DNA of 50,423 nucleotides from Candidatus Thalassarchaeum sp. (GTDB lineage: Archaea; Thermoplasmatota; Poseidoniia; Poseidoniales; Thalassarchaeaceae): assembly GCA_965658085.1 (NCBI GenBank), contig CBFHQW010000001.1, positions 1 to 50,423 on the forward strand, given 5' to 3'. This document shows positions 15,820 to 48,598 of the stretch, piece after piece. Position 1 is the first letter of the stretch; each line of letters starts with the position of its first letter. A program made the position numbers and the translations under genes. Under the pieces are notes generated by a model. That model was not told where the DNA came from. It saw only the letters and a program-made list of their open reading frames with translations, and ran no database searches.

Positions 15820-18800
15820 ATGCGCCAGCCTAGCCGACACCAAAACGTCCTCCCGATAGCCCTCGTGATACTGCTTTTGGGGATGTCAGCCTCAGTAACT
15901 ATTGACTCGGGAGACAGATCCAAATTGGCTGAGGATAAGCCCGCCCTTGAGACTCATGCGAACTCCACTCTCCACTTCCCCGGATCTCAAGCCGGCTCGA
16001 TATATTCGTCCTCCACAGTATCTGCCTCATATGACAATACTTGTGCAGTATTGGATAACAATTCAGTGAAGTGTTGGGGTGAAGGCCAGGTCGGAAGAGG
16101 GGGTTGGGGTGACAACAGTGACCGAAGAACTCCAACACATGTTTTACTCGGCTGGCAGTCCGGAACGCCCAGTTTAGCCACCGAAGTTGGACAGGGCTCC
16201 GGGGCCTCGGGACACCACACTTGTACTATTATGGTCGATGGCACAATTCAATGCTGGGGTGAGGACTTCAGTGGCCAAATCGGCCACGGCGGAAATTCTG
16301 GGTGGCATACTACTCCATATCCAGTAGCGATGCCTGCAGGAAAAACTGCTATACAAGTATCAAACGGAGGGCATCACACTTGCGCTATTATGGATGACCA
16401 TTCTCTCTATTGTTGGGGAGAAAATAGTGAAGGAATAGTAGGAACCGGTCAACGTGGCAACGATCATACTACTCCTTACCCAATCGACCTACCCGCCGGC
16501 CGAACCGCTGTTGCTGTGTCTACTGGATGGAAAAACTCCTGCGTTATCTTGGACGACGGCACTGGAATGTGCTGGGGCCTGAACACGGTGGGCCAAATAG
16601 GGGATGGAACTACTACTAACAGAGACGAACCGACACCGATAACAATCCTCCCAACAAGCAGTACGTTGGCTGCGATAGCAATTGGTGGTGGCGGTGGCAC
16701 TGGTGCTACTAATGGCAGCGAGTCTGGGACAACAACCTGTGCACTATTGAATAACGGTAGTGTAGCTTGCTGGGGCAAAAACGATGTTGGCCAATTTGGA
16801 GATGGAACAACCATATCATCCACCTCTCCCAAGTATGCCTTACTACCACCCGGCCGAACCGCGATATCGATTGATGTAGGAAGATTCCACGCCTGTTCAA
16901 TTCTAGATGACAACAGTAGCGTATGTTGGGGGAACAACACCGATGGACAAATCGGTGATGGGACTACTATTACTCGACTCACACCAACATATGTGGACTT
17001 CCCCAACGGACATTTCTCAACGATATCCACAGGGCAGTACCACACCTGTGGTATCGCATCCAATGCATCAGTACACTGTTGGGGTAAGCATGAGGATGGC
17101 GCACTCGGGTTGGGTACCTCTGACGGCGTGAATATTCAGGATAGTGACATCCCTGCATATGTTGAACTAGGGGATATAAATCCAAACTCAACGGTTCTTG
17201 CATCCGCCTCCTTAGGCGAGAGAGATCATGACAACGACGGCATTGTTTCAATATTCGACTCGACTCCATGGGTTGCTGAATCATGCTCTCCGGGTCAGTA
17301 TTTGTCTGGTCTGCAGTGCATAGACGCCTCCCCCGGGCACCACGTACCTTACCATGACATGACTGAGCAATACGAATGCTACCCTGGAACCTATCAACCA
17401 AATTACGGGCAGAGCTCTTGCATAGATACCTCGCCCGGGTACTTCACCGACGTCAATGGCTCGATCGACCAGAGCCCATGCTTCGCAGGGACCTACCAGC
17501 CTGCCGATGGTCAATCTTCGTGTATTGATGTCGATCGAGGAAATTACAGCGATGCAGGATTAGCCTATCAGATACCCTGTCCACCGGGAACCTACCAGCC
17601 CGACCCCGGCCAACCATCTTGCTTAGATGCAGATCCGGGGAACTATGTTTCTGAACCCCAACAATTCGACCAGACCAAATGTTCGCCGGGAACCTATCAG
17701 CCCGTGGCAGGTAAGACCGGCTGCTTCTTAGCAACGGAAGGGCATTACGCGCCAGGCTTTGGTTCTACAGATCAACTGGCATGTGAGCCTGGGACCTACG
17801 CACCATCGTCTGGCATGGACTCGTGTCACCCTGCCGACCCCGGGTACTATGTCACCGATGGTGGGGGCATAGCACAGATGGCCTGTCCGGCTGGTTCGCA
17901 TCAACCGACTCCCGCATCGATTGGTTGCTCTCTGGTCGATCCAGGGCACTACGCACCTGAGCCAGGGACACCCTTCCAGATACCATGCCCAGCGGGCAAC
18001 TATCAACCAGGCACCGGTTCACAGGATTGTATCGAAGTCGCTTCAGGTCACTATGCACCAGGCCCTGCCGCTACTTCACAAACTGAGTGTGATGCTGGTA
18101 GTTATGCACCTGAGAGCGGTATGGGTGAATGTCTGTTCGCTGATCCAGGCCACCATGTCCCTGATGTAGGTTCAGACTCACAGACTGCATGTTCTGCCGG
18201 ATACCATCAGCCGGCTTCGGGCGCTTCGGAGTGCCTAGTCAACCAGATCGGACATTACACGGATGAGAGTGGAATTGCAGAACAGATACCTTGCTCACCC
18301 GGGACCTACCAGTCGATGATTGGTGCAACATCCTGTTCCGAGGCCGACTATGGTTTCCATGTCCCCAACTCGGGCTCCGCGGGCCAGGAGGGCTGCCTGA
18401 TAGGCACCTATCAGTCACATACCGGACAATCAGAATGCATCGACGCTGAGGCGGGACATTACGTTGACACCCGCGAGGCTGCAGTGTCCACCGCTTGCGA
18501 GCGCGGGACCTACCAGCCTGAGAAAGGACAGACGGAATGCATAGACGCAGATGCGGGCAAACATGTCCCTTCGGCCGGCTCTCCAACCCAGACACCTTGC
18601 GAGCGCGGCACCTTCCAAGAAATGATGGCACAGGCAGAGTGTATTGACTCTCAACCCGGATACTATGTATCAACCAGTGGTGCTGATTACCAGACGGCCT
18701 GCAAGGCAGGCACGTATCAAGACAATGCGGGTAAGATGAGTTGCAAGGAGGCAGACGTCGATCACTTCGTCGCTGAATCCGCAGCGACCAATCAGGAGAA

Positions 18801-19092
18801 GTGCAAGGATGGCTCAACGCAGCCTGAACAGGGGCAGACGAACTGCATTGAGCCTGACAACTCTGTACTCATGATGGGTGCGGCAGCGGGCGTCGCAGCG
18901 ATCGGATTCATAGTAATCTATACTCAGTCCCAGAAAAAGGAGAAGGCACCAAAACGCCGTAAGAAAATAGACTCTAAACTCGGTCATTTGGGTGATCAGA
19001 AGGGCAAGCGCAGGAAATCTCCCGCTAAGGGCAAGCGCAGAAAGCGACCCGCTAAGGGCAAGCGCAGAAAGCGACCTCCTCAAGGTGAGTGA
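15820..19092 (+). CDS. Large surface protein: signal/anchor, 7-blade RCC1-like beta-propeller, ~15 ephrin-receptor-like (GCC2_GCC3) Cys modules, TM helix and Lys/Arg-rich tail
   Basis: Seven C-W-G-x-N-x-x-G-Q-x-G-D-G blades (for example CWGLNTVGQIGDGTT, CWGKNDVGQFGDGTT). About 33-aa modules of the form C.pGTYQp..Gq..C.da..G.Y........q..C. TM helix MMGAAAGVAAIGFIVIY, then a KKEKAPKRRKK... tail. Confidence 0.8.
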   Translation: MRQPSRHQNVLPIALVILLLGMSASVTIDSGDRSKLAEDKPALETHANSTLHFPGSQAGSIYSSSTVSASYDNTCAVLDNNSVKCWGEGQVGRGGWGDNSDRRTPTHVLLGWQSGTPSLATEVGQGSGASGHHTCTIMVDGTIQCWGEDFSGQIGHGGNSGWHTTPYPVAMPAGKTAIQVSNGGHHTCAIMDDHSLYCWGENSEGIVGTGQRGNDHTTPYPIDLPAGRTAVAVSTGWKNSCVILDDGTGMCWGLNTVGQIGDGTTTNRDEPTPITILPTSSTLAAIAIGGGGGTGATNGSESGTTTCALLNNGSVACWGKNDVGQFGDGTTISSTSPKYALLPPGRTAISIDVGRFHACSILDDNSSVCWGNNTDGQIGDGTTITRLTPTYVDFPNGHFSTISTGQYHTCGIASNASVHCWGKHEDGALGLGTSDGVNIQDSDIPAYVELGDINPNSTVLASASLGERDHDNDGIVSIFDSTPWVAESCSPGQYLSGLQCIDASPGHHVPYHDMTEQYECYPGTYQPNYGQSSCIDTSPGYFTDVNGSIDQSPCFAGTYQPADGQSSCIDVDRGNYSDAGLAYQIPCPPGTYQPDPGQPSCLDADPGNYVSEPQQFDQTKCSPGTYQPVAGKTGCFLATEGHYAPGFGSTDQLACEPGTYAPSSGMDSCHPADPGYYVTDGGGIAQMACPAGSHQPTPASIGCSLVDPGHYAPEPGTPFQIPCPAGNYQPGTGSQDCIEVASGHYAPGPAATSQTECDAGSYAPESGMGECLFADPGHHVPDVGSDSQTACSAGYHQPASGASECLVNQIGHYTDESGIAEQIPCSPGTYQSMIGATSCSEADYGFHVPNSGSAGQEGCLIGTYQSHTGQSECIDAEAGHYVDTREAAVSTACERGTYQPEKGQTECIDADAGKHVPSAGSPTQTPCERGTFQEMMAQAECIDSQPGYYVSTSGADYQTACKAGTYQDNAGKMSCKEADVDHFVAESAATNQEKCKDGSTQPEQGQTNCIEPDNSVLMMGAAAGVAAIGFIVIYTQSQKKEKAPKRRKKIDSKLGHLGDQKGKRRKSPAKGKRRKRPAKGKRRKRPPQGE
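17284..18860 (+). repeat. Protein-level tandem array of ~15-16 two-Cys modules (~99-102 nt each), diverged at the DNA level
   Basis: Recurrent ...GTYQP..GQ..C... units run from CSPGQYLSGLQC to CKDGSTQPEQGQTNC. Confidence 0.75.
19000..19080 (+). repeat. 3 x 27-bp near-perfect tandem repeat inside the CDS
   Basis: AAGGGCAAGCGCAG(G/A)AA(A/G)(T/C)(C/G)(T/A)CC(C/T)(G/C)CT at 19000-19026, 19027-19053 and 19054-19080. It encodes KGKRRKSPA / KGKRRKRPA / KGKRRKRPP. Confidence 0.9.
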
Positions 19093-19136: not shown

Positions 19137-20204
19137 GTGAAGGACTATCCGGGTGAACGAGTCGACCTGCGCAGTGACACGGTCACACAGCCCACACCTC
19201 CGATGCGCGAGGCGATGGCAGCAGCGGTAGTGGGCGATGATGTCCTAGGCGACGACCCCACCGTGATAGAGCTGCAGAATCGCATTGCAGAGATGCTTGG
19301 AAAAGAGGCCGCACTGTTCGTTCCTTCTGGGACTATGTCCAATGCGGTAGCAATCAAATCGCAGACCAAGCCTGGCGACGAAATTGTCACCCATCGCAAG
19401 AGCCACATCTACATGTACGAGGCAGGCGGTTACGCGGTACTAGCAGGATGCTCAATCTCCTTGGTTGAAGGGGAGATGGGACAAATGTCTCCTGAAGATG
19501 TTCAGAGGGCAATTCGAAAGGTAGCCGGAAGCGATTCACATTATCCAGAATGCACTCTGATTTGTGTTGAGAATACAGCAAATGTAGGAGGCGGGTCAAT
19601 CTACAATCAGGAGACTTTGGATGCAATCTGTGAAGTCGCACATAAGAACGACTGTCGTGCCCACATGGATGGTGCAAGGATGTTCAATGCAGTTGTTGCC
19701 AGTGGTACCGATCCAGCAAGGATGGTTAGAGACTTCGATACTATCTCGATATGTTTGTCAAAGGGCCTTGGTGCACCCATAGGCTCCGTCCTTGTAGGGG
19801 ATGCCGCTACCATTGCCGAGGCTCACAGATGGCGCAAGATGTTTGGTGGAGGCATGAGGCAGTCAGGGATACTCGCAGCCGCTGGATTGTATGCCTTGGA
19901 GAACAATATCGATAGACTCGGAGAGGACCACGCCCGAGCCCGGCGCCTCGCCGAAGCATTGGACGCCATGGAGGCGTATTCAATTGACCTTGGAGCAGTG
20001 CAGTCAAACATGGTGTACATCAATTGTAAGAAGGATGGAGCAAAGAATCTCGTCAATAGCCTAGCCGAGCAGGGCGTCGATGTTCTAGACTTAGAGCAGG
20101 GTGTTGACTATGGTGATATATCCACTGTCAGAGCGGTAGTGCATCTGCACATCACCGATGAGGATGTCGACCGGGTCATCGCTGCTTTCGATGCCGCTCA
20201 ATGA
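19137..20204 (+). CDS. ltaE: Low-specificity L-threonine aldolase
   Basis: [18 protein letters not shown]...[12 protein letters not shown]......[14 protein letters not shown] is the classic family N-terminus. GTG start. Confidence 0.85.
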
Positions 20205-21175
20205 CCCGGAAGCATTCAATATCCCAATATGCAGGGACTAATGTGAGAGTGACGCCATTTCTCTTGGTCGCACTGCTTCTAACAGCCTCAACCCAAGTCA
20301 TTGCTACCAGTGAGCAGAGCTCGATGTGGATCGATGCAAGACGAGGAGCCGACGGAGGAGTCCTCGGTGCTCTAGAGATTCCTCTGACCAATGAGACAAC
20401 AGACAGTGAAACCTCACTCAACTACTCTGAGATGACTCCAGTCGTCGAAGTCTACACCGCCACATGGTGTTTCAACTGCGTGACCACAGAGCAGGCCCTT
20501 GACGAGGCCATAGGTGATTCTGATATCATGCGTATCCATTACCACAGGCACAGGTCCGAACCAGAGGACCCCTTCGGCAACAATGCCACGGAACATCGCT
20601 GGGAGTCTACTTACGGCGACGCCTCGAATGCAGAGGCGGGATTGTCCAGAGTGGCTCCGTCCACGGTGTTTGATGGTGAGAGGATGCATTTGGGGACCTC
20701 ACCGAGCTCAAGCACCCTCACGAACGATTACTCTACATCATTGGCCACCGGATCTTCTTGGAGCTTCATAGGAACCGCTCAGTTCTCTGTTTCTGTTACC
20801 GAATCAGGTGAGACGAAGTTCTCATGGAACATCACCGATTTGAGTGTTGACAACGATGATGTGCACTGGACATTTACTCTGACACCATGGCTTCTCTTTG
20901 TCGAGGACAGCGCCAGTTTCCCAGACGGCTCGAATGGTGTCGAGGACTACCTGCATGTGCTGCATGATGCCATTGAATTGGATGGATTAGAAGGCTCCAT
21001 GATTGTAGAATCTCCATCGGCATGGGATGGTGATGATGTCTCAGCCGTGCTGTTAATAGATTGGTCAAAGAGAGGGCCTTCAGTTTGTTGCGGCCCCTCT
21101 CTACCGGGGCCGGGGATGGTAGCCGTAATGCTGTGTTTCCTTGTTGCTTCTCTGCCGTCACGCAGAGAGCGATGA
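20201..21175 (+). CDS. Secreted thioredoxin-fold-like protein with a single CxxC and a C-terminal hydrophobic anchor
   Basis: N-terminal signal ([16 protein letters not shown]). [19 protein letters not shown] is DUF1223/thioredoxin-like. The C-terminal [24 protein letters not shown] is PGF-CTERM-like. ATGA overlap with ltaE. Confidence 0.45.
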
Positions 21176-21235
21176 TATCTTAGATTCGATATCAGACCCT
21201 TAGGTGGGTTGAATAACCCCACCCCACCATTATGT

Positions 21236-24200
21236 ATGCTCGGTGATGCCATGTCCTCGGAAACCCTCGTTCAAGTGACTTGTGAAGAGGTGCCTAGGGG
21301 CAATAGCCCGGCATGGCTCACAGAGCATATTCTGAGACAGTCGTTGGGTCCAACAGGATCCGAGTCAGATCTCTCAGGAAGAGTTCTGGTCGTCTACCCT
21401 ACTGATGAATCCAGAAAGCAGGCTCTTGCTGAAATGCCGATAAATCAGGCGATTGACAGCACACTCCACCATACCATCGACTCTCTAAAGTCCTCACTGG
21501 TGGCGGATTTGAGGTTGCCAAGGGTTCTGAGCACTGAGGGCGGCTTTGAACTGGTGTTGCATGAGGCCTGTCGTCGCGAGGCGGCAAGGCTAGCATTTCC
21601 GATGATTAATCCACTGCCGGAGATGAGGTGGGGCAGGGGAAAGACCGCAGCTCTGGCGGAGTTGCACTCGTACCTGACGCGAGAGTCGGCCGAGGCCGCT
21701 TGGGACGGCCCAGGGATCGTTTCCTTTGGCTTCATCATCAGGAAGCTCGAGAGGCGATTGGGAGGAACTCACCCTGATTTGGTCGCCTCTCGCATCATCG
21801 GTGGATTGAACAGAGGGGAGAAGCCGTTCTCTCTGCTCGATGTCGATGGCATAATCATGCTCGACCATCCTCCAGAGCTCCCCCTCTCGCACATTGAACT
21901 CATGCTAGCAGTTTCGAGGCACTGCCCCATCCACCAATTGGCCCACCCAGGCAACTTTAGGCTTGGACACCACGGTATGCTCCTACTGGATCAACACCCA
22001 ATCAAGACCCAATCAGACCTTCCTCCATGGGTGCCGCCGCACCAGCCAGAATCAACTCCTCCCGAGTCGTCTGCCGAGCGCATGCTGCTGCAGAGGGAGA
22101 AACATTCCTTCGAGGTGACGATTGAGTTGATACGAGAACGTCTTGAGTCAAACACTTCTTCCCATCTTATCATCGTGGATCCGGCGCTGGAATCTAACCT
22201 ACCACAATGGAAGAGGTGTCTGAAGGCACTTGGGGTACCACTTCCTCCTTCGCGCCAACCGGCACACACTCATTCTCTGGGCCACTGGCTAATCGCTTTG
22301 GCAACCCTGCCCCACGGTCCCGATGCATTCTCCCTTGAGGCATTGAGGTCTTTCTCTCTGCAAGCGACACTCAAGCCATTCGAAAGCCCCGATGCTCACC
22401 CCACGGAGAACAAGATCAGTCCGCTTGCCGACCCCGACATGTTGACGGAAATGGCTCGCAGCGAGCATGTGCTGGGTGGCCCCGGAGCTCTCGCTAGATG
22501 GCTACAGACGATAGCGAGACCGCCGATATCGGAGCGCGACCAGTTCAGAAAAGAGTCGACGCAGTGGTGGCTTCTTTGCCTCGTTGATTCCCTGAGGCCA
22601 CTACTCACGGGGGAGGACCGCGCAGTCCTCGATGAGGCCAGCAGGGTGGGCTGCCACACAGGGCAAAAACTCCCGATGATTGAGTCTTCAGCCAGTGCCG
22701 ATAACTGGCTGCTCTCCATACTCGGAATGATTGACCTAGAGTCCGCGATGGAGTCGTGTGACGGCGAGGGCCCCACTCCGTCAGCGGTGGCTCAAGCCGT
22801 AGTCAAGGACATTCAGGCGCTCAGGTCGATGCAGTCCAGTATGGGTCACAACGCACCTAAAATGGGTCCAAAATGGGTTGATGAGTTCATTCCACTTGTC
22901 CGCTCCTCAAGCATCCAAAGCGGCTCTTCACTAGCCTCTGGAAGGGTCAGGGTACTCACTCCATCTGCCGCTCTCGGCTGCACTGCCGATACCATCATTT
23001 TAGCAAATCTGTCGAGCTCCTCGTGGGATCTCAGAGCCCCGAAGATGGCCTTTCTCGGCGACGAGGAGAGACATTCACTGGACCTGCTCCGACCGGATGG
23101 CCCAATCAGAGCAGCAAGGCACCAACTCGAACACCTTCTCGCCGCGGCTCCCGAAGTCTTAGTCCTCGATCCGAGCCTCGATGATGCGTCCCCGGCAGCC
23201 GCTCCTATTCGAGAGTGGGCAGCAGCTCACGACCCTGATGACGCCGCCGAGGTGATGCGCACCGAGCCCGAGCAACCGGTCAGTCCACGCGATCTCAAGC
23301 AGTCCGACGGAATTTCTCTCAGGAACATGCTTCCTCCAGCCCGAGCACCCCTCAACCCCAGTGCCATATCAGTATCAATGGACTCGGAATTGCAGCGCAA
23401 TCGCGAGAGACGGCAACCGAGTCATGCCGATGACGATGGATACCTAGCCCTAACTTCTGTCCAACACCTGTTCTCTATTGACAGGACAGATCTGACCCGT
23501 CGGACTCCGCCTGGCATCGAACCTCCTCGCTCGCACGACAGGTGGCCCGTGGTTGGAGGATTTGTCGCTGGAGGCAAGAGGACCCCTACCATCGACCCCC
23601 GACCATTCGTCCCTCATGCAACTGGTACGAATGTCAGCGATTCGAGGCACGGTCATTCAGTAGGAGCCGAGCAGGATGTCCCTATCTGGTCGCCGAGTAG
23701 GCTACATTACTGGCTCAAGTGCCCGAGAATGGGTTGGTTGTCGAATGGACTCAGGGCAGAGGAGGACGAACTGCAGGCTGAGGACTTAGATCCCCGCACC
23801 CACGGTGAGTTACTTCACAATGTCCATCACGATCTAATCTGTCAGACTCTTGGGTTCGAAATTGGTATTGAGAGGCCTTTCGGAGAAGGCAGCTCTGTCA
23901 GCAGCGTCGCCCAATCTGGCAGGAGCGAGGATGAGCTGATGCAAATAGTACTTGAGTCTCTAGACAGCCGAGCCCCTTGGCTCGACAGGACTGACGCGGT
24001 TTCTACTCATAGGCTGATGATACTGACTGGGATGAGCAGAGACGAGTGGAATCGATGGTTGACTAATCCCTGCCCTGTACCACCATCGGGAAGGGTCGGG
24101 ACTATCGTAAGGGCCGAATCAACAGTCAGTCATGCCTCACCGGTATGCCTAGAATGGAGCGTGGCTGATTTCGATGAGAAAGGAATCGAGATATCGATAC

Positions 24201-24823
24201 CAAAGAACCTCTCTGGTGGCGAGCAGCTCCCGCCGATTCGGGTTCGAGGCTACATAGACAGGGTCGACATCCTACCAATAGATGAGTCCACTAAAGAGTG
24301 GCTAGATCCTGATGGTGAGGAGAGCGTCGCTCCACTCAGAATCCACGGTTCGGGGTGGAGACCGCGCCGCTTAGTGGCAATTAGGGACCTCAAGACCTCT
24401 GAAAGCAAGGCCGCAAAGATACGACATTCCGACGGATTGCTCGATGAACTCCAATTGGCGTTGTACGCGAGGGCATGGGAGATTGCTCACCCAGGTGACT
24501 TGGTGGTCGCTGCTGGGATCTCCCTGTTCAGTCACCACACCGAGCACATGCTGGAACTATCTTCGCATTACTCTGCAGCTCACAGGGATCTCCTACTCGG
24601 TACTCGTACGGACATCACCACATCACTGCACAGATTTCCCGACGAGCCGCCTTCTCCGCACAGTGACCACTTCAGGGCATGGCTCACACAGCGCCTAGCA
24701 GTGGCGCTACGTGTCGCAGCCGGGGCTGCTGCGGGAAGAGTCCACCCGACCCCCTCACCAGGAGTGTGTGGTTACTGTCCGGTGAGGAATGTCTGCGAAG
24801 TCAGGATGGAGGCTGGTTTCTGA
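21236..24823 (+). CDS. addB: AddB/RexB-like subunit: no P-loop, C-terminal Cas4/AddB-type Fe-S PD-(D/E)XK nuclease
   Basis: Cys at 23720 (LKCPRMGW). RGYIDRVD. IRDLKTSE (D 24386, K 24392). QLALYARAW. CGYCPVRNVC (Cys at 24767, 24776 and 24794). I found no GxGKT. The start is ambiguous: TTG 21209, ATG 21236 or ATG 21251. Confidence 0.65.
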   Translation: MLGDAMSSETLVQVTCEEVPRGNSPAWLTEHILRQSLGPTGSESDLSGRVLVVYPTDESRKQALAEMPINQAIDSTLHHTIDSLKSSLVADLRLPRVLSTEGGFELVLHEACRREAARLAFPMINPLPEMRWGRGKTAALAELHSYLTRESAEAAWDGPGIVSFGFIIRKLERRLGGTHPDLVASRIIGGLNRGEKPFSLLDVDGIIMLDHPPELPLSHIELMLAVSRHCPIHQLAHPGNFRLGHHGMLLLDQHPIKTQSDLPPWVPPHQPESTPPESSAERMLLQREKHSFEVTIELIRERLESNTSSHLIIVDPALESNLPQWKRCLKALGVPLPPSRQPAHTHSLGHWLIALATLPHGPDAFSLEALRSFSLQATLKPFESPDAHPTENKISPLADPDMLTEMARSEHVLGGPGALARWLQTIARPPISERDQFRKESTQWWLLCLVDSLRPLLTGEDRAVLDEASRVGCHTGQKLPMIESSASADNWLLSILGMIDLESAMESCDGEGPTPSAVAQAVVKDIQALRSMQSSMGHNAPKMGPKWVDEFIPLVRSSSIQSGSSLASGRVRVLTPSAALGCTADTIILANLSSSSWDLRAPKMAFLGDEERHSLDLLRPDGPIRAARHQLEHLLAAAPEVLVLDPSLDDASPAAAPIREWAAAHDPDDAAEVMRTEPEQPVSPRDLKQSDGISLRNMLPPARAPLNPSAISVSMDSELQRNRERRQPSHADDDGYLALTSVQHLFSIDRTDLTRRTPPGIEPPRSHDRWPVVGGFVAGGKRTPTIDPRPFVPHATGTNVSDSRHGHSVGAEQDVPIWSPSRLHYWLKCPRMGWLSNGLRAEEDELQAEDLDPRTHGELLHNVHHDLICQTLGFEIGIERPFGEGSSVSSVAQSGRSEDELMQIVLESLDSRAPWLDRTDAVSTHRLMILTGMSRDEWNRWLTNPCPVPPSGRVGTIVRAESTVSHASPVCLEWSVADFDEKGIEISIPKNLSGGEQLPPIRVRGYIDRVDILPIDESTKEWLDPDGEESVAPLRIHGSGWRPRRLVAIRDLKTSESKAAKIRHSDGLLDELQLALYARAWEIAHPGDLVVAAGISLFSHHTEHMLELSSHYSAAHRDLLLGTRTDITTSLHRFPDEPPSPHSDHFRAWLTQRLAVALRVAAGAAAGRVHPTPSPGVCGYCPVRNVCEVRMEAGF

Positions 24824-27800
24824 TGCGTCTGAATACCGCCCAACGCCTCGCACTCAATTTGGATGCGCACATAGTCGTCGACGCTGGGGCAGGCACTGGC
24901 AAGACCAGTACGATAGTTGATCGCGTCATCGAGCACTATCTGACCGAGGATCAGAGAGCAACCCGACTACTCCCCAAGCCCGAGCGTCCATCCAAGTTGC
25001 AAGGAGGTATGATAGCCGCCCCAGCAGCAGAGCGCATAGATCTCAGGGAGTGGGGGGGCTTGCTTCCAGGGGAAGTAGTGCTGCTGACCTTCACCAACCG
25101 TGCAGCCGATGAGATGAGAGACAGACTGCGACGAAGCATCGCCCGGCTGCGGCCCGGCCCCATAGGGGATGACGGGACTTGGCGCAGCGACCCTAGAATC
25201 AGGCACAAGGGATTCAGCGAACAACTCCTGACGTTGCTAGAGGACGCACCAATAGGAACCATCGATGCGTTCCTCAATCAACTGGTCTCGCCGTACCGAG
25301 GTATCCTCGGAGACGCTCTAAGCCGAGACAACGTCTCGGACGCAGGCAGGATTATGCTGGTGGAGTCTGCCTTGAACACTCTCTGGAGGTTGCCGAGTTC
25401 GGTCTCTCACATCGGAGAGGCGGTTGATGCGGGCATCCCGGCCGAAATCGCTTCAGATGTACTAGCAGCCAGAGACAGGATTGCGCGACATTACTCAGGG
25501 CGGCGCTCTGCAGCTAGGGTGCTGCGCAGTTTGGTGGGAAGTTCCGTGTTCATCGAGGAGGCAGCTCGCAGGATAATGGATGGCGACACCATCACCTCCG
25601 AGTTGCTGCACCAGCAGATTATGGCATCAGTAGATGCCAACGAGGTCGCCAAACACGCGACTGAGGTCCATTCTATTGCACAGCGTTTCTGCGATTTGGT
25701 AAGGGAAAATTCAGCATCCATGGCGCTCACTGGATGGCCGGCCGATTCTAGGATGGCCTGCTTGGACTCCCTATGTAGCGAGGGGCCGCCTGAAGACGCA
25801 TGGGGGCAACTGACATGGCTGAGCCACACTCTAGTCTGCACCCTCAACTCATCAGCCCTAATGAAGAATAATCCGGCTTTCTTCCCTCATTCTCATCTCC
25901 CATCTGATTCATGGGAGGCTGGTATAGAGAAGTACTCGAGAATTCCAGACGCGCGCTCCAAGGCACGCGTCAAGGATGAAATCAGTGACATAGTAATCGA
26001 TCTCAAAGCCGCTTGGTCCTCCGACCGCGGCAGACTGATGCTGCACTTCACGCGAGTTGCCATGCTGCTCAGTGACTCAACTCCTCCGGCTTCTCCCGCA
26101 GATTGGACTCCCCCGTTATCCCCTCTTCAGATTCCTCTACCTGAACGAATCGATGGCCCCGCTTCCAGTCACTACTTTTCTCTCGATGCCGAAGTTCGCA
26201 ACCTACAGGACCTATACCTCGCTCATCGGGGCTTCCAAGGTATCATCAGGAAACTCAAGGAGAGGGACGAGGTCCACGACTTCGACGACATCCAGAGACT
26301 AGCCGGAGATTTGCTTTTGGCTAACTGCCCCTCAACATGCAGATCGTTCTACCACTCTTCGATGCAGGATGCTCTGGACTCGTTGACGGATAGCCCATGG
26401 CGTGATGATCACATCGATGCGGCGTTCGCAGCCCTCGAGCGTCTGGAGGCCAATCCTAGTATGGCCGGGGAGGCAGCTTCGAGCCTCGGCGCCATCCGCG
26501 CCGACCTCGAGGGCAGGTATAGCCTGCTGATGACAATCAGGAGACGCTACCGAGCCTTCATCATCGACGAGGCCCAAGACAACTCACCACTCCAGTGGAG
26601 GCTACTCTCGAGGTTATGGGGCGAGAGGCGCGTAGACGAAGGCGAACCGAACGCCCCCGACACTCCATGGCAGCCAACAGTTTGCTACGTGGGAGACGTT
26701 AAGCAGAGCATTTACGCATTCAGACAGGCAGAGGTCACCGGCTTCCTTGAATTCGCGAGGCAGTTGATGGCGGTTAACGACCACGAACTGGCGGGAGTCC
26801 CAGAGTTAACACGCAAGCCAGCGCTCAGAAAAGACTCCCACAGTCGCGATCCAAGGAACGCACACTCTCTGACCATCGTAACAGCCACTGAGTACATGGA
26901 ACAGGGAGGGAGGGATCTAGTGGCTTGGATACCCTTCGACGCGACCGATCGCGACCTGCCCGCCCCGAGTGGGGCTGAGGTCAAGAACCGCAGGAGGGGA
27001 CTGATTGCTCTGCAGGTGAACTATCGTACCAGCGGGGGACTTCTGAGAGCGATGAACGAGTGGTGGGAAGACGTCTTTTCAGATAGACACCGACTTTTTC
27101 CCAACGGTGATTTCTACGCCACCCCTCAGACGTTATTCGCATGCCCAGACAAGCGCGATACCCCAGGAGCCATTGAGTGGATATGTCCTTTGAGCACCGG
27201 TGGAGATTCCAATCCTCCCACTGACTTGACCACGCACCTAGATCCGTTTGGTGAGGGCAAGCCAGACTCTCTCGAGCGCCAGGCCCTGCTGATAGCTCGA
27301 CGCGTTGGCAGCCTCATCGACGGTTCACCAGTCAGTGTTAGGTCGGCAGATGGGAAGTGGCATCAGGTGGATGCTGAAGACCCCGTTTCTCCCAGTGAAA
27401 TCATGATACTGCTTCCCACTAGGCCGAATATCAGGGACGTGGTCATCAGACATCTCCATGACCACGGAATTCCAGCTCAGGCAGACCGGGAGGGAGGGTT
27501 GCTGGACAGACCGGCCGCACACGCCCTTGAGGGGTTGCTACAGTTTGTCGCTAGACCTAGGTCGCGCCACCACGCTTCCTGGGTAGCCCGCTCCGTCCTG
27601 ATTGGCTTGGACGACTCCCAGTTGCAGGACTACATCGGAGGTGCACAACGGGGGGAAGATTTGCTGTCCCGACTAGTGGAGCATTGCTCGAGCGATTCTC
27701 AACGGGCCTTGGTAGAGAGGTGGCAACAATTGTCCGAATCGGGACGTCTAATTGATCTGCTGGATGAGACCATAGACAGGTCTGATTTACTTACTGCCCA

Positions 27801-29739
27801 CCCCGATCCAGTCTCACGTCAAGACGTCGAGCAAATTGTTGATGTCATCAGAGCACTGGCTGCTGAGGTCGGAGGTGACGCAATGGTCCTAGCAGACAGG
27901 ATACGTGATCTCAGAGAGCGTAGCGCCGGCGCCCTTGAGGCCATCACCATCCCACCCAGTGATGCTGTCAAGGTGATGACGATTCACAGCGCCAAAGGGC
28001 TTGAGGCCAAGGTAGTGGTATTGGCCGATGTCTTCTCCAACAGGCAGACCAACATGAGGAACGAGAACCTCAGCCGTCTGATAGTGAGTCCCGAGCTCTT
28101 CGCAGGAAATCCCAAGCCGTGGTCTAGCGAACCCTCTCCTCACTCTGCGCTGTGGTCCCACGTTCAGGTGTTGCATCAGGCTCGTAAGGATGCTGAGGCT
28201 CGAAGGCTGCTGTATGTAGGTGCCACACGTGCGGAGGAGAGACTGATTGTGGTGGGCTCGAATAGAGGAACTGAGTGGGCCGAGGGAGAGGGTCTACGGA
28301 TGCCTTGGTCCTACGATACGAAGATACCTCAATTGGGTCAAATGTGGATTGAATCATTGCGCCAAGGCTCGTTGAGGCGAGCGGAAACTGCTTCACCGTG
28401 GCTAGATGAGGGTGACGACAATGACGCTCCAGCCATCAGAACCAGAGGTCAGCGCACCTTCGATCCCACCAGAATGTTCTCCAAAGCCTCTCTTGGCGGC
28501 AACTCAACTCTCCCGGGCATGCTTGTAATCCACCACCCAGACTGCTTCGAGGATACTGACAATTCGCCTGTGCTGACGCCGCTACAACGTATTGAGAGGC
28601 TGGATGATGCCGCCAACTCCTCGGTAGAGTCTGAGGACCCTGCTCCTCCTAGGCAGGACTCAGCACCTCGAATCAGAATCACTCCGAACAGACTCCCAGT
28701 GTTCCAAGAGTGTCAACGGCGACAGTGGTTCGAGACCAAGGGTGGCCTGAGTCCGGATCCGATAGTATCCAGTGGACAAGCGCATTTATCGAAAGGGATG
28801 CCAGCTAACGTTGATTCTGCGACTCTCGGTACCGTTTTCCACAGGATATTGGAGATAGGAATCGGCAATCCTGGTCTCGACGGCGAGCCGACGAGCTCCC
28901 CACTTCAAGCATCATGGACGGAACACAGAGAGAATCTTCTGTTAGATCCAGAGACTCATTCCACGGTGTTCACAGAACTTCTTCCCCCTGACGCTGACCT
29001 CCAGCGAACCCGCCTTCTGGTTGAGAGCATGGCAGAGCGCATTGACTCCGGACCCCTGGGCAGGATGGTGCAGCGTGAATCGGTGGACGACCACAGACTC
29101 GAAGGACTCAGAACAGAGATGCCGTTCCATATCTCCATTGATGTCGATACAGGGGGCTCAGTCAGGCAACGTTGGAGTCCCGATGGACCCGAGCTGTTGG
29201 CGAACATGGATAAGGCCACTATCGAGATGAACGGAATCATCGATCTCGTGCTGTGCACGACGACTCCAAACGGTGGTTCTGCTATCCGAGCTGTCGATCT
29301 AAAGACCGAGGATGCCGGATTAATCGACAATGATTCCTCTGAGGGACTCCTCGAAGCCCTCGGTTCGGATGACTCTGGACCCGCTTGTGAAGCCGAACTC
29401 GAGATACTGAACAAGCACCGCATGCAGCTGGCCCTGTACTATCGTGCGTTACAGAGCATGGAGGACGCGAGAAAAGCGGCCAATCTAGGGTTCAGGACTG
29501 TCTTGCCCCCTGCCATACTGGTTGGAGTGACTGGCAGGATGGTCGAGTACCCAAAGGAGATGCTCGATCTAGCATCACGGGAGTTAGAAGAACTGCTTGT
29601 TAGGACTGCTGGCATGGCTCTGGCTTCAGACGCCCCGCTGTCAGATTTCGACAGGCTCCCGGCAGAGTCCGCCCACATATGCGAGAACTGCCCATTCCAT
29701 CGCGGCGCGCTACCTATCTGTGGCCCTGCGGAGCATTAA
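24823..29739 (+). CDS. addA: AddA/RecB-like UvrD-family SF1 helicase fused to a C-terminal PD-(D/E)XK nuclease
   Basis: Motif I AGAGTGKTS (24886-24906). Ia LTFTNRAADEM. II IIDEAQD (26566-26580). III VGDVKQSIYAFRQA. IV VNYRTSG. V TIHSAKGLEAKVV. VI LYVGATRAEERL. Nuclease: GTVFHRILE, GIIDLV, AVDLKT (29296-29307), QLALYYRAL. The start ATG overlaps the addB stop (TGATG at 24821-24825), giving 1638 aa. Confidence 0.8.
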   Translation: MRLNTAQRLALNLDAHIVVDAGAGTGKTSTIVDRVIEHYLTEDQRATRLLPKPERPSKLQGGMIAAPAAERIDLREWGGLLPGEVVLLTFTNRAADEMRDRLRRSIARLRPGPIGDDGTWRSDPRIRHKGFSEQLLTLLEDAPIGTIDAFLNQLVSPYRGILGDALSRDNVSDAGRIMLVESALNTLWRLPSSVSHIGEAVDAGIPAEIASDVLAARDRIARHYSGRRSAARVLRSLVGSSVFIEEAARRIMDGDTITSELLHQQIMASVDANEVAKHATEVHSIAQRFCDLVRENSASMALTGWPADSRMACLDSLCSEGPPEDAWGQLTWLSHTLVCTLNSSALMKNNPAFFPHSHLPSDSWEAGIEKYSRIPDARSKARVKDEISDIVIDLKAAWSSDRGRLMLHFTRVAMLLSDSTPPASPADWTPPLSPLQIPLPERIDGPASSHYFSLDAEVRNLQDLYLAHRGFQGIIRKLKERDEVHDFDDIQRLAGDLLLANCPSTCRSFYHSSMQDALDSLTDSPWRDDHIDAAFAALERLEANPSMAGEAASSLGAIRADLEGRYSLLMTIRRRYRAFIIDEAQDNSPLQWRLLSRLWGERRVDEGEPNAPDTPWQPTVCYVGDVKQSIYAFRQAEVTGFLEFARQLMAVNDHELAGVPELTRKPALRKDSHSRDPRNAHSLTIVTATEYMEQGGRDLVAWIPFDATDRDLPAPSGAEVKNRRRGLIALQVNYRTSGGLLRAMNEWWEDVFSDRHRLFPNGDFYATPQTLFACPDKRDTPGAIEWICPLSTGGDSNPPTDLTTHLDPFGEGKPDSLERQALLIARRVGSLIDGSPVSVRSADGKWHQVDAEDPVSPSEIMILLPTRPNIRDVVIRHLHDHGIPAQADREGGLLDRPAAHALEGLLQFVARPRSRHHASWVARSVLIGLDDSQLQDYIGGAQRGEDLLSRLVEHCSSDSQRALVERWQQLSESGRLIDLLDETIDRSDLLTAHPDPVSRQDVEQIVDVIRALAAEVGGDAMVLADRIRDLRERSAGALEAITIPPSDAVKVMTIHSAKGLEAKVVVLADVFSNRQTNMRNENLSRLIVSPELFAGNPKPWSSEPSPHSALWSHVQVLHQARKDAEARRLLYVGATRAEERLIVVGSNRGTEWAEGEGLRMPWSYDTKIPQLGQMWIESLRQGSLRRAETASPWLDEGDDNDAPAIRTRGQRTFDPTRMFSKASLGGNSTLPGMLVIHHPDCFEDTDNSPVLTPLQRIERLDDAANSSVESEDPAPPRQDSAPRIRITPNRLPVFQECQRRQWFETKGGLSPDPIVSSGQAHLSKGMPANVDSATLGTVFHRILEIGIGNPGLDGEPTSSPLQASWTEHRENLLLDPETHSTVFTELLPPDADLQRTRLLVESMAERIDSGPLGRMVQRESVDDHRLEGLRTEMPFHISIDVDTGGSVRQRWSPDGPELLANMDKATIEMNGIIDLVLCTTTPNGGSAIRAVDLKTEDAGLIDNDSSEGLLEALGSDDSGPACEAELEILNKHRMQLALYYRALQSMEDARKAANLGFRTVLPPAILVGVTGRMVEYPKEMLDLASRELEELLVRTAGMALASDAPLSDFDRLPAESAHICENCPFHRGALPICGPAEH

Positions 29740-31195: not shown

Positions 31196-31276
31196 GCCGG
31201 ATAACCCCGTGATGGGATGAGATTGATTCCGCCGAGGTTAAAGCGGATGCACCGGTCGAGCACCCTGAGGACTCGT

Positions 31277-31918
31277 ATGAGCGAGGAAGAGGGAATCATC
31301 ACTCCTGAGTTACAGACGCGACAGCTCGAGGAGAGGCTGGCCGAGGAGACCGACCGCCTCGAGAAGCTTTACGTGGCTTACAAGAAGGTCGAAGACGAGT
31401 TGGCAGAGAAGAACGCCATCATCGAGGTCCTCGAGAAGGAAGCCATCGACAAGGAGATCGACAAGGAGGGACTAGAATCACTCCTATCCGAGAAGGAAGC
31501 GAGAATCCACGAAATCGAGATAGAGGGGGCCAAGACCGGCAAAAGGGTCGAGCATCTTGAGCCAGAACTCGAGAAGATGGAGGAGCTGTACACTCGCGAG
31601 AAGGCTCGCCTTGGACGTGTCTTCGAGGTCACCGAGGAACTCGACGAGCGCAATCGGGTAGCTACTGCAGAACTCTCCGCGCGCGATGACTGGTATGTCC
31701 AGCACATGCAACTCTTCGAGCAACTCAACGAGGCCATCGACACCCGCTACACAATGATAGACAGGGCAGTTGAAGCGGCAAGGGACGTGCTAGCCAGTCA
31801 AGAGACCTTCAAGGAGCGCATGGAGGAAGCCCTCGATGCAGTCAAGGAGACCGTCGATGACATAGTTGATGGCGATGACGAAGAGGACACCGACGAGCCC
31901 GAAGCGGACGAGTCCTGA
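31277..31918 (+). CDS. Acidic coiled-coil protein, function unknown
   Basis: Heptad-like E/K/L-rich sequence throughout, with an acidic tail DGDDEEDTDEPEADES. Start is either 31277 (MSEEEG) or 31217. Confidence 0.5.
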   Translation: MSEEEGIITPELQTRQLEERLAEETDRLEKLYVAYKKVEDELAEKNAIIEVLEKEAIDKEIDKEGLESLLSEKEARIHEIEIEGAKTGKRVEHLEPELEKMEELYTREKARLGRVFEVTEELDERNRVATAELSARDDWYVQHMQLFEQLNEAIDTRYTMIDRAVEAARDVLASQETFKERMEEALDAVKETVDDIVDGDDEEDTDEPEADES

Positions 31919-46672: not shown

Positions 46673-47818
46673 TTGAGCCACATGTCTGAAGGAGAAACTA
46701 GCTGGGTCCGAGCGATGGACCCTAGGGATACCAAACTCAACCTTCTACTACTAGCCCTGCCGGTAACTTGCTACTTCGCGTACATCGCGCATGACGAGTC
46801 CATGGCCTTCATGTTCTCTCTTCTAGCGATTATGCCACTGGCTTTCTTGATGGGTAGAGCAACTGAGGAGATTGCGCTCTATACATCAGAATCCTTGGGT
46901 GGATTACTCAATGCAACTTTTGGAAATGCTGCTGAGATGATAATCGCTTTACTCGCAATTTATACAGCATCGCAAGCAGTCTCTGGAAGTGATACAGAGA
47001 CACTCATGATTGGTCTAGTACAAGCCAGCCTAATCGGTAGTATTCTTGGAAATCTACTACTCGTGATGGGTCTTGCATTTTTGTGGGGGGGAATCAATTT
47101 CCCCGAGCAGAAATTCTCTGAAACTCAGGTCAGTTCCAACGGTTCACTGATGATGTTAGCGATGATTGTACTAATCATTCCAACCGTATTCAACTCAACC
47201 GTAGGGGGAACCGAGGGTGAAGAAGGCGTCATGCAACTAAGCCACGTAGCAGCAATCGTACTCCTTTTGTTGTACGGATTATTCCTTTACTTCCAGTTCA
47301 AGTCTCACGTGGATCTATTCGCTACAGAGACACATGACCATGAAGCGCCTGAGATGAGTAAGCGTGATGCCATTATTCTCTTAGTTGTCGCTACAATTCT
47401 AGTTTCTTGGATGGCCGAGATTCTTGTTCATTCGGTAGAATATGCTGCCTCGGATGAAGGACTGGGCCTTCCCCACTTATTCATTGGAGTGATTCTACTC
47501 CCTCTATTCGGTAACGCGGCCGAGCACTTCACCGCCGTGGTAGTTGCGGGCAAGGACAAGATGGATCTCTCCTTTGCCATCTCGATGGGCTCATCAACTC
47601 AGATCGCAGTCTTTGTAGCTCCAATGATGATTCTCGTGGCATGGGCATTGAATGTACCATTAACTTTCGAGTTTGGAATGCTAGAGACTGTATCTGCATT
47701 CCTAGCCGTACTAATTGTGAATATCATAGCTTCAGACGGCAAATCGAACTGGCTAGAAGGAGCAATGCTGCTTGGCACCTACGCGGTCTTAGGTGCAGCC
47801 TTCATGTTCCATCCCTGA
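46673..47818 (+). CDS. Ca2+/H+ antiporter (CaCA/CAX family)
   Basis: Two alpha-repeats, GNAAEMIIAL and GNAAEHFTAV, and about 11 TM helices. Possible starts: 46673, 46682 or 46715. Confidence 0.85.
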   Translation: MSHMSEGETSWVRAMDPRDTKLNLLLLALPVTCYFAYIAHDESMAFMFSLLAIMPLAFLMGRATEEIALYTSESLGGLLNATFGNAAEMIIALLAIYTASQAVSGSDTETLMIGLVQASLIGSILGNLLLVMGLAFLWGGINFPEQKFSETQVSSNGSLMMLAMIVLIIPTVFNSTVGGTEGEEGVMQLSHVAAIVLLLLYGLFLYFQFKSHVDLFATETHDHEAPEMSKRDAIILLVVATILVSWMAEILVHSVEYAASDEGLGLPHLFIGVILLPLFGNAAEHFTAVVVAGKDKMDLSFAISMGSSTQIAVFVAPMMILVAWALNVPLTFEFGMLETVSAFLAVLIVNIIASDGKSNWLEGAMLLGTYAVLGAAFMFHP

Positions 47819-47886
47819 ACATTGAGTAGTGGATTCTGTATGATGGATGCAGAGGATTCAATGAGTATGAGCAACAGGAGAAGACC

Positions 47887-48597: not shown

Positions 48598-48598
48598 A

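What the first reader, a model, noticed from the sequence alone, without database searches (positions are those of the whole stretch)
21209..29739. Bacterial-type AddB/AddA-like helicase-nuclease pair embedded in an archaeal core region
Two very large, translationally coupled genes (TGATG overlap at 24821-24825) encode an AddB-like protein and an AddA/RecB-like SF1 helicase-nuclease. In established knowledge, archaeal DNA-end resection is carried out by Mre11-Rad50 with HerA-NurA, whereas AddAB/RecBCD machines are bacterial. The local GC content looks like that of the neighbouring genes, and I see no flanking mobile elements. The pair therefore appears long-resident rather than a recent island. 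It could act in end resection and recombination or, like RecBCD/AddAB, in degrading foreign linear DNA.
Basis: partly seen in the sequence, partly recalled or inferred. Interest (0 to 1): 0.7.

Follow-up and report, generated by a model that had tools for sequence, protein, structure and literature searches.

The report
Divergent AddAB-like helicase-nuclease in marine archaea
Two overlapping giant genes in a Marine Group II archaeon encode a very divergent relative of the bacterial AddAB machine that chews back broken DNA ends; every related genome examined carries the pair in the same chromosomal neighbourhood, although a recent paper states that archaea lack such enzymes.

Summary
A 1195-aa gene (ATG 21236, not TTG 21209, to 24823) and a 1638-aa gene (24823-29739) overlap in TGATG.

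**What the proteins are**
- The second protein is an SF1A UvrD-type helicase with motifs I-VI intact and a C-terminal PD-(D/E)XK nuclease. Its best solved relative is B. subtilis AddA.
- The first has no detectable helicase sequence and no Walker A (0 of 153 homologs). Its AlphaFold model matches B. subtilis AddB best, then AdnA. It ends in an intact nuclease with the AddB-type C...CX2CX5C iron-sulfur signature.

**Context**
- The window is Marine Group II (Poseidoniales) chromosome (MCM, GatE, P0/L1, Spt5, FtsZ).
- The pair sits in one syntenic block in all 80 genomes inspected, from 348 species-level hits. These include single-cell genomes and a 1.6-Mb contig.
- dN/dS is 0.07-0.10.

This is a long-resident, functional AddAB-type complex, most likely for DNA-end resection.

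**How it departs from canonical AddAB**
- It fails all curated AddA/AddB models.
- No bacterial donor is detectable.
- The motor subunit carries a Cas4/AddB-type cysteine-bearing nuclease, not an AddA/RecB-type one.

Archaeal addAB was noted in 2009, and a haloarchaeal plasmid carries a more canonical pair. I rate this a new variant of a known kind.

The parts
21236..24823 (+).
   Evidence: ORF. Homologs are 1195 aa and start at this ATG. Pfam PDDEXK_1. Foldseek top hits are AddB chain B, 7e-15.
21266..23275 (+). N-terminal helicase-like but ATPase-dead module of the AddB-like subunit (residues ~11-680). The P-loop position reads VLVVYPTDESRKQ.
   Evidence: AF2 pLDDT is mostly 80-90 here. The fold matches AddB, then AdnA, UvrD and RecC. 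No conserved Walker A at the P-loop position in 0/153 homologs. No Pfam or NCBIfam helicase hit.
23678..24820 (+). PD-(D/E)XK nuclease domain of the AddB-like subunit, with motifs GYIDRVD, RDLKT and QLALY
   Evidence: Pfam PF12705, 2.9e-13. Catalytic residues are invariant in 25 and 22 sequence sets. Coordinates checked.
23720..23722 (+). First iron-sulfur ligand candidate, Cys829 (WLKCPRMGW)
   Evidence: Invariant in A1 and A3.
24767..24796 (+). CX2CX5C (CGYCPVRNVC), the AddB/Cas4/Dna2-type cluster motif
   Evidence: Present in 152/153 full-length homologs. Coordinates checked.
24821..24825 (+). TGATG stop/start overlap (translational coupling)
   Evidence: Overlapping or abutting stop/start junctions are seen in most of 80 related loci.
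24823..29739 (+). AddA-like motor-nuclease subunit gene (1638 aa)
   Evidence: Pfam UvrD-helicase, UvrD_C and PDDEXK_1. Best NCBIfam hits are addA_alphas, recB and addA_Gpos, all below cutoff. Best PDB relative is AddA 3u44_A, 3.9e-20 with the family profile.
24823..28272 (+). SF1A helicase core (residues 1-1150): Walker A GAGTGKT 24886-24906, motif II DEAQD 26566-26580, motifs III-VI, with enlarged 1B/2B inserts
   Evidence: All motifs are invariant in 26 homologs. Coordinates checked.
28675..29736 (+). C-terminal nuclease of the motor subunit, AddB/Cas4 class: Cys1297 at 28711-28713, GIIDLV, VDLKT, QLALY, and CENCPFHRGALPIC at 29680-29721
   Evidence: AF2 pLDDT 85. Foldseek top hits are AddB chain B, AdnA, ACE1 (Cas4 family) and Dna2, ranking ahead of RecB. 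hhalign to the ORF1 nuclease gives 97.5% probability, E about 1e-12. Cys conservation.

Best explanation
The two genes encode the subunits of an AddAB-type heterodimeric, single-motor, dual-nuclease enzyme that acts on double-stranded DNA ends. The large subunit (ORF2) is the only ATPase. As an SF1A (UvrD/AddA-like) 3'->5' translocase it would pull the 3'-ended strand through and feed it to its own C-terminal nuclease. The partner (ORF1) is a helicase-shaped but ATPase-dead scaffold, like AddB or RecC. It would hold the complex on the end, possibly scan the passing 3' strand for a regulatory sequence, and cut the 5'-ended strand with its own nuclease domain, which is stabilised by an iron-sulfur cluster. 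The net result is resection of breaks to 3' tails for the archaeal recombinase, and incidentally destruction of unprotected linear foreign DNA. Shown here: the domain content, intact catalytic and ATPase motifs, the AddB-like fold, the cysteine signatures, strict gene pairing, conserved synteny and purifying selection. Inferred by analogy with B. subtilis AddAB: heterodimer formation, strand assignment, Chi-like control and the biological role.
For: ORF2 has UvrD-helicase, UvrD_C and PDDEXK_1 domains. Helicase motifs I-VI and the nuclease motifs are invariant in its homologs. Its best-scoring curated families are AddA and RecB rather than PcrA, UvrD or Rep. Its best solved relative is AddA. 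The ORF1 AF2 model matches all five B. subtilis AddB chains first (E 7e-15 to 6e-14). AdnA follows at 1e-10, then UvrD and RecC. The ORF1 nuclease motifs and C829 plus CX2CX5C are invariant. There is no Walker A at the P-loop position in 0/153 homologs. The genes overlap by TGATG. All 80 related loci have the AddA-like gene immediately downstream. dN/dS is 0.07-0.10. The block Beta_elim_lyase - hyp324 - B - A - M20 is conserved down to about 42% protein identity among the 80 loci. In a still more divergent lineage (L004, about 30% identity) the same upstream order, lyase - hyp324 - B - A, recurs.
Against: Neither protein reaches any curated AddA, AddB, RexB or RecB threshold. ORF2 scores 136 bits against a cutoff of 861, and ORF1 has no hit at all. 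The ORF1 family profile finds nothing in PDB by sequence. Foldseek TM-scores are low (0.37-0.40), and the ORF1 nuclease domain was modelled poorly. The ORF2 nuclease is not of the AddA/RecB class. In 37/119 homologs the last C-terminal cysteine is missing. There is no biochemical or genetic evidence. The presence or absence of Mre11-Rad50 and HerA-NurA in these genomes was not determined.
Confidence: 0.75

Rival explanations
1. The primary role is defence. The complex would be a RecBCD-like degrader of linear viral or plasmid DNA, or a relative of the defence-associated UvrD-Cas4 fusion helicase-nucleases, rather than a recombinational repair enzyme.
For: The ORF2 architecture (UvrD helicase fused to a Cas4-class cysteine-bearing nuclease) is the one described for UvrD-Cas4 fusions of bacteria and mesophilic archaea, which sit in type III R-M and Dcm-Vsr contexts (PMC5704561). 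The nuclease model matches the Cas4-family protein ACE1. RecBCD and AddAB are themselves known to degrade foreign linear DNA (established knowledge).
Against: No methyltransferase, restriction subunit, WYL/HTH or other defence gene is adjacent. PADLOC gives only generic UvrD/GajB-type helicase hits. The pair lies in a fixed housekeeping neighbourhood in all 80 genomes examined, unlike patchy, island-borne defence systems. No relatives were found in viral contigs. A partner AddB-like subunit is not part of the UvrD-Cas4 description.
Confidence: 0.15
2. The pair is an artefact: bacterial DNA mis-binned or mis-assembled into an archaeal contig, or a recently acquired island.
For: The architecture is overwhelmingly bacterial. 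GC of the pair is slightly higher than the rest of the window (0.566 against 0.538).
Against: The same block occurs on a 1.53-Mb and a 1.60-Mb Poseidoniales contig, in several single-cell genomes (AG-457-A01, AG-404-A19, AG-447-I14, AG-313-L18, AG-319-P11), and in 348 GTDB species-representative hits. Flanking genes are syntenic. No mobile-element genes are present. Of the ten clusters looked up, the named members are Poseidoniales, Thermoplasmatota or Euryarchaeota, apart from one partial labelled only 'bacterium'.
Confidence: 0.01
3. The pair works in a different DNA transaction that needs a helicase plus two nucleases, such as processing of reversed or stalled replication forks, flap or Okazaki-type intermediates (Dna2-like role), or crosslink repair. 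In that case it would not carry out general DSB end resection.
For: The ORF2 nuclease also resembles the iron-sulfur nuclease of Dna2. The gene block lies about 12 kb from MCM. The extra ~400 residues and additional invariant cysteines in ORF2 hint at lineage-specific functions.
Against: Dna2 has the opposite layout (N-terminal nuclease, SF1B helicase). The AddB-like partner fold is specific to end-processing machines (AddAB, AdnAB, RecBCD). AddAB and RecBCD themselves process reversed forks as DNA ends, so this is largely a sub-case of the main explanation.
Confidence: 0.09

Closest known systems
AddAB (Bacillus subtilis type; PDB 3U44/3U4Q/4CEH-4CEJ)
   Same: The gene order is B then A, and the genes are coupled. 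One active SF1A motor with a C-terminal PD-(D/E)XK nuclease is paired with a helicase-shaped inactive partner that carries an active nuclease and a C...CX2CX5C iron-sulfur signature. Best structural match for ORF1 and best sequence match for ORF2.
   Different: It fails the curated AddA and AddB models. The B-like subunit has no Walker A. The motor is about 400 aa longer (1638 against 1232). The motor's nuclease is of the cysteine-bearing AddB/Cas4 class rather than the AddA/RecB class. The host is an archaeon that presumably uses RadA, not RecA.
Haloarchaeal plasmid addB-addA-like pair (Halobacterium salinarum R1 PHS3, WP_012289693.1 / WP_012289692.1), and the 'archaeal addAB genes' of Cromie 2009
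   Same: An archaeal host, adjacent overlapping B-then-A genes, and a B-like subunit with C677 plus CX2CX5C.
   Different: The haloarchaeal AddA-like protein is much closer to bacterial AddA (TIGR02784 357 bits, nearly full length, against 136 bits partial for ORF2). It has no cysteines in its nuclease domain. It is plasmid-borne next to an IS element, not in a conserved chromosomal core. It shares only about 27% identity with ORF2 over the helicase region and has a marginal profile match to ORF1.
AdnAB (mycobacteria; PDB 6PPJ, 6PPR, 7SJR)
   Same: A heterodimer of two helicase-nuclease-shaped subunits. AdnA is the second-best fold match for ORF1 and for the ORF2 nuclease.
   Different: In AdnAB both subunits keep ATPase motifs (from my own recollection of the AdnAB literature, not checked here). 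ORF1 has none.
RecBCD
   Same: A RecB-like motor-nuclease plus a helicase-shaped inactive partner. RecC is among the fold matches.
   Different: There is no RecD-like SF1B gene nearby. RecC has no active nuclease, whereas ORF1 keeps all nuclease motifs.
UvrD-Cas4 fusion helicase-nucleases (Hudaiberdiev et al. 2017, PMC5704561)
   Same: ORF2 alone has this architecture: a UvrD-like SF1 helicase with a C-terminal Cas4-like four-cysteine nuclease. The family is reported in bacteria and mesophilic archaea.
   Different: Those proteins are described as stand-alone or linked to type III R-M or Dcm-Vsr defence genes. ORF2 is always paired with an AddB-like gene in a housekeeping neighbourhood. The phylogenetic relationship was not tested.

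Membership tests
AddAB | A subunit: SF1A UvrD-like helicase with intact motifs I-VI and a C-terminal RecB-family PD-(D/E)XK nuclease | tested here: met
   Pfam UvrD-helicase, UvrD_C and PDDEXK_1. The motifs are invariant in 26 homologs.
AddAB | A subunit reaches the curated AddA models (TIGR02784, TIGR02785) | tested here: not met
   136 bits against a cutoff of 861, and 108 bits against 708. The alignments are partial.
AddAB | B subunit: helicase-like N-terminal fold without motor activity, plus an active C-terminal PD-(D/E)XK nuclease | tested here: met
   Foldseek top five hits are AddB chain B, E 7e-15 to 6e-14. Pfam PDDEXK_1 and invariant D, D-x-K and Q-x3-Y motifs.
AddAB | B subunit reaches the curated AddB/RexB models (TIGR02773, TIGR02786, TIGR02774) | tested here: not met
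   No NCBIfam hit at E <= 0.01. The family profile finds no PDB sequence.
AddAB | Iron-sulfur cluster cysteines flanking the AddB nuclease (C...CX2CX5C) | tested here: met
   C829 plus C1178, C1181 and C1187 are invariant. 152/153 homologs have CX2CX5C. Metal binding itself was not tested.
AddAB | Walker A ATP-binding motif in AddB (B. subtilis class; reported as variable among AddB classes by Cromie 2009, from memory of the abstract) | tested here: not met
   0/153 homologs have a conserved P-loop at the N-terminal position. The sequence there is YPTDESRKQ.
AddAB | A-subunit nuclease of the AddA/RecB type, without an iron-sulfur module | tested here: not met
   ORF2 has C1297 plus CX2CX9C. 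Its model matches AddB, AdnA, ACE1 (Cas4 family) and Dna2 before RecB. It is most similar to the ORF1 nuclease.
AddAB | addB and addA adjacent in one operon | tested here: met
   TGATG overlap. Adjacent in 80/80 related loci.
AddAB | Stable heterodimer with ATP-dependent dsDNA-end helicase-nuclease activity, regulated by Chi | not testable with these tools
   Needs biochemistry. A complex prediction exceeds the size limit of the structure tool.
AdnAB | Both subunits retain ATPase motor motifs | tested here: not met
   ORF1 lacks Walker A, and no helicase family is detected in it.
RecBCD | Third subunit RecD (SF1B helicase), and a RecC without nuclease catalytic residues | tested here: not met
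   No SF1B helicase gene lies in the surrounding genes. ORF1 keeps its nuclease motifs.
UvrD-Cas4 fusion (PMC5704561) | Single polypeptide with a UvrD-like helicase and a Cas4-like four-cysteine nuclease | tested here: met
   ORF2 architecture.
UvrD-Cas4 fusion (PMC5704561) | Helicase domain inside the monophyletic fusion clade, in a stand-alone or defence (type III R-M, Dcm-Vsr) context | tested here: inconclusive
   The context criterion is not met. Monophyly could not be tested because no reference members were retrievable.

The most novel reading that the evidence does not exclude
Poseidoniales use this pair as their main long-range end-resection and linear-DNA-degrading machine. It would work with the archaeal RadA recombinase and a lineage-specific Chi-like signal, in place of or alongside HerA-NurA. 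The machine would be a distinct 'double iron-staple' design, in which the motor's original RecB-type nuclease was replaced by a copy of the partner's iron-sulfur nuclease.
Probability: 0.3. Interest if true: 0.75.

Novelty: new variant of a known kind. Interest (0 to 1): 0.55.

Why it matters
A 2026 preprint still states that RecBCD/AddAB 'are not present in archaea' (10.64898/2026.05.08.723854). Reviews of archaeal repair describe resection only through Mre11-Rad50 with HerA-NurA (PMC7690668). Here an AddAB-type machine is a conserved, selected, chromosomal core feature of Marine Group II, described in the literature as the most abundant planktonic archaea of the surface ocean (PMC6461757). 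It is annotated only as 'hypothetical', 'PD-(D/E)XK nuclease family protein' or 'UvrD-helicase domain-containing protein'.

If active, four questions follow:
- How does a bacterial-style resection engine hand DNA to RadA?
- Do archaeal Chi-like sequences exist?
- Does the enzyme shape virus (magrovirus) defence and CRISPR-independent immunity in these uncultured organisms?
- What does a second iron-sulfur-type nuclease on the motor subunit do?

The pair also gives annotation pipelines a family to name.

Tried and rejected
- **ORF1 against PDB by sequence.** Single-sequence and family-profile searches found nothing. Only the structure comparison linked ORF1 to AddB.
- **ORF1 N-terminus against the ORF2 helicase.** Profile-profile comparison gave no match. 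Only the nuclease domains align.
- **PADLOC.** Only generic UvrD/GajB hits, no defence system.
- **Rfam and tRNA scans of the window.** Nothing found.
- **ORF1 against plasmids by tblastn.** No match.
- **Viral contig scan.** No relatives.
- **Cromie 2009.** Could not be read. Its claim is cited second-hand from PMC2887965 and from my memory of the abstract.
- **MGII genome papers.** Three I searched directly contain none of the terms helicase, nuclease or DNA repair (PMC6461757, PMC10480650, PMC4122925). A library-wide search found no MGII paper that mentions NurA.
- **The upstream 324-aa gene as a third subunit.** Rejected. It is a signal-peptide, WCFNC thioredoxin-like, membrane-anchored protein coupled to the lyase gene.
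- **A bacterial donor.** Could not be identified. The exhaustive representative search returned only 190 clusters. The ten I looked up either carry Poseidoniales-type names or are unnamed.
- **Mre11, Rad50, HerA and NurA in these genomes.** Presence could not be tested, because no whole genome is accessible and no query sequence was available.
Full report
**1. Observation**

The window holds two long ORFs on the + strand, 21209..24823 and 24679..29739. The sequence at 24821-24825 is TGATG. TGA ends the first ORF, and the ATG at 24823 is in frame with the second. Homologs of the second protein begin with the same MRLNTAQRLALNLD as the ATG at 24823. The genes are therefore 21236-24823 (1195 aa) and 24823-29739 (1638 aa).

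**2. What the proteins are**

*The large subunit (ORF2).*
- Pfam finds UvrD-helicase, AAA_19, UvrD_C and a C-terminal PDDEXK_1.
- Its best curated families are addA_alphas (136 bits), recB (120) and addA_Gpos (108), ahead of PcrA (80). All are far below the family cutoffs.
- Its best solved relative is B. subtilis AddA. The E-value is 1.4e-9 with the single sequence and 3.9e-20 with a 26-sequence family profile. PcrA, UvrD1, UvrD, RecB and AdnB follow.
- In 26 homologs of 49-88% identity, the Walker A (GAGTGKT), motif II (DEAQD), motifs III-VI and the nuclease motifs (GIIDLV, VDLKT, QLALY) are invariant.

*The small subunit (ORF1).*
- Pfam finds only a C-terminal PDDEXK_1. NCBIfam finds nothing, and PDB sequence searches find nothing even with a family profile.
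- An AlphaFold2 model from a 25-sequence alignment is confident for residues ~11-680 (pLDDT mostly 80-90) and poor for the nuclease domain.
- Foldseek against PDB ranks the five B. subtilis AddB chains first (E 7e-15 to 6e-14, >800 aligned columns). AdnA follows at 1e-10, then UvrD, Rep and PcrA, then RecC.
- TM-scores are modest (0.37-0.40), as expected for a multidomain protein with an unmodelled domain.
- None of 153 full-length homologs has a conserved P-loop at the N-terminal position. The window sequence there reads VLVVYPTDESRKQ.
- The nuclease motifs GYIDRVD, RDLKT and QLALY are invariant. So are Cys829 (WLKCPRMGW) and the terminal CX2CX5C, which is present in 152/153 homologs. This is the cysteine pattern of the AddB/Cas4/Dna2 iron-sulfur nucleases (pattern from established knowledge and PMC5704561).

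ORF1 is thus an AddB-like subunit: a helicase-shaped, ATPase-dead scaffold with an active-looking, cluster-bearing nuclease.

**3. An unexpected feature**

The ORF2 nuclease domain also carries an upstream invariant Cys1297 (FQECQRRQW) and a C-terminal CX2CX9C (CENCPFHRGALPIC). Several lines place this domain in the AddB/Cas4 class rather than the AddA/RecB class.
- A confident model of residues 1165-1638 (pLDDT 85, 92-sequence alignment) matches AddB chain B, AdnA chain A, the Cas4-family protein ACE1 and Dna2. All of these rank ahead of RecB, and AddA chains are not among the listed matches.
- Profile comparison shows the ORF1 and ORF2 nuclease domains are each other's best match (97.5% probability, E about 1e-12, ~290 columns).
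- By contrast, ORF2 against a haloarchaeal AddA nuclease aligns over only a 67-column core.

One caveat applies. Among 119 ORF2 homologs, 65 have CX2CX9C, 16 have CXCX2C, and 37 keep only CX2C at the C-terminus. The fourth ligand is therefore not universal.

**4. Host and residency**

The neighbouring genes are archaeal housekeeping genes: MCM, GatE (GatB_N with a GAD insert), ribosomal P0 and L1, Spt5/NusG and FtsZ. The window is 99% identical at protein level to Marine Group II euryarchaeote MED-G34 (L005).

A pattern scan of one genome per GTDB species found 348 loci encoding an ORF1 relative. The 80 retained all come from Marine Group II, Poseidoniales or Thalassarchaeaceae assemblies, or from assemblies titled only Euryarchaeota, Methanobacteriota or Thermoplasmatota archaeon. 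They include single-cell genomes and a 1.60-Mb contig.
- In 80/80 loci the AddA-like gene follows immediately. The stop and start mostly overlap as TGATG, TAATG or ATGA.
- Four loci have interrupted AddA-like ORFs. These are probably assembly errors or occasional pseudogenes.
- Wherever the contig reaches far enough, the block Beta_elim_lyase - hyp324 - B - A - M20 peptidase is conserved: 71, 76 and 71 of the 80 loci show the lyase, hyp324 and M20 respectively. This holds down to about 42% ORF1 identity.
- A still more divergent lineage, about 30% identical in both proteins but 56-60% in GatE and the lyase, keeps the same upstream order, lyase - hyp324 - B - A.

dN/dS is 0.07-0.10 for both genes at three divergence levels. 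There are no mobile-element genes, tRNAs or relatives in viral contigs. GC is 0.566 against 0.538. The pair is therefore ancient in this order, not an island and not a chimera.

**5. Origin**

An exhaustive phmmer search of 1.84 billion 50%-identity representatives returned only 190 clusters for ORF1. Of the ten clusters I looked up, members with an informative organism name are Poseidoniales, Thermoplasmatota or 'Euryarchaeota archaeon'. One partial is labelled only 'bacterium'. No canonical bacterial AddB is reachable by sequence, so a donor lineage cannot be named. 'Bacterial-type' describes the architecture, not a demonstrated transfer.

**6. Comparison with what is known**

Archaeal addAB genes have been reported before. 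Cromie 2009 is cited for transfer of addAB 'even into the archaea' (PMC2887965). I could not read the paper itself.

I found a concrete example on Halobacterium salinarum R1 plasmid PHS3. A 1018-aa PD-(D/E)XK protein overlaps a 1211-aa UvrD-domain protein.
- That AddA-like protein aligns almost full-length to TIGR02784 (357 bits) and has no cysteine in its nuclease.
- Its partner has C677 plus CX2CX5C.
- It is therefore an orthodox AddAB pattern.

The MGII pair is far more divergent. ORF2 shares 27% identity with the haloarchaeal AddA-like protein over the helicase region, and ORF1 gives only a marginal profile match to the partner.

ORF2 alone resembles the 'UvrD-Cas4 fusion' family of bacteria and mesophilic archaea. 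That family is described as stand-alone or defence-linked (PMC5704561). No such context exists here.

MGII genome papers that I searched do not mention the pair. A 2026 preprint states that RecBCD/AddAB are not present in archaea.

**7. Mechanism (inferred from B. subtilis AddAB)**

- ORF2 is the single 3'->5' motor and cuts the 3' strand.
- ORF1 anchors the complex at the end and cuts the 5' strand.
- ORF1 may also read a Chi-like signal.
- The product is a 3' tail for the recombinase, and unprotected linear DNA is destroyed.

Heterodimer formation, strand assignment, cluster binding and regulation are all untested.

**8. Verdict**

The pair is best filed as a new, strongly divergent variant of the AddAB kind. 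It is conserved in every Poseidoniales genome inspected. Its distinguishing features are an AddB/Cas4-class nuclease on both subunits, no Walker A in the B-like subunit and an enlarged motor. It fails the curated family models, so it should not be called AddAB sensu stricto without biochemical or phylogenetic support. Interest is moderate to good (0.55).

Noticed in passing
window 24823-29739 (ORF2 residues 502, 506, 621, 788, 1241, 1478): Six further invariant cysteines lie outside the terminal cluster motif: NCPxxC at 502/506, C621 just before helicase motif III, C788 in EWICP, C1241 and C1478. They may form a second metal site in the helicase part.
   Followed up: no
L085 2770-9454 (Halobacterium salinarum R1 plasmid PHS3, NC_010368.1 203712-210396): A more canonical overlapping addB-addA-like pair sits on a haloarchaeal megaplasmid beside an ISH1A transposase. 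Similar UvrD-domain genes hit on about 40 other haloarchaeal plasmids.
   Followed up: partly
window 20201-21175: A conserved 324-aa gene lies directly upstream of the pair. It has a signal peptide, a WCFNC thioredoxin-like motif and a C-terminal membrane anchor. It is ATGA-coupled to the Beta_elim_lyase gene (19137-20204), present in 76/80 related loci, and evolves as fast as the AddB-like gene.
   Followed up: partly
window 15820-19092: A 1090-aa protein combines RCC1-repeat propeller and Ephrin_rec_like repeats, which are eukaryote-associated domains. It is conserved at the same position in other MGII genomes.
   Followed up: no
window 814-4779: A 1321-aa branched-chain amino-acid ABC permease has two BPD_transp_2 stretches, apparently a LivH-LivM fusion. 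Two ATPase genes follow it.
   Followed up: no
window 47001-50423: GC falls from about 0.55 to 0.44-0.50 over the last 3.4 kb, around an ABC-F type ATPase gene (48599-50248).
   Followed up: no
L030/L055 (JAJPRD01) and L025/L080 (CAZKVK01): Two MAGs each carry two divergent copies of the pair, each with at least one of the syntenic flanking genes, on different contigs. This suggests mixed-population bins rather than paralogs.
   Followed up: no
L008, L029, L040, L043: The AddA-like ORF is interrupted (609, 1231, 281 and 544 aa before a stop) although similarity continues downstream. The cause is either assembly frameshifts or occasional pseudogenisation.
   Followed up: no
window 31217-31918: A 233-aa protein has no Pfam hit and only weak SMC-like (LmuB/MkoC) PADLOC matches, so it is probably coiled-coil. 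It is conserved downstream of the M20 peptidase in other MGII loci.
   Followed up: no
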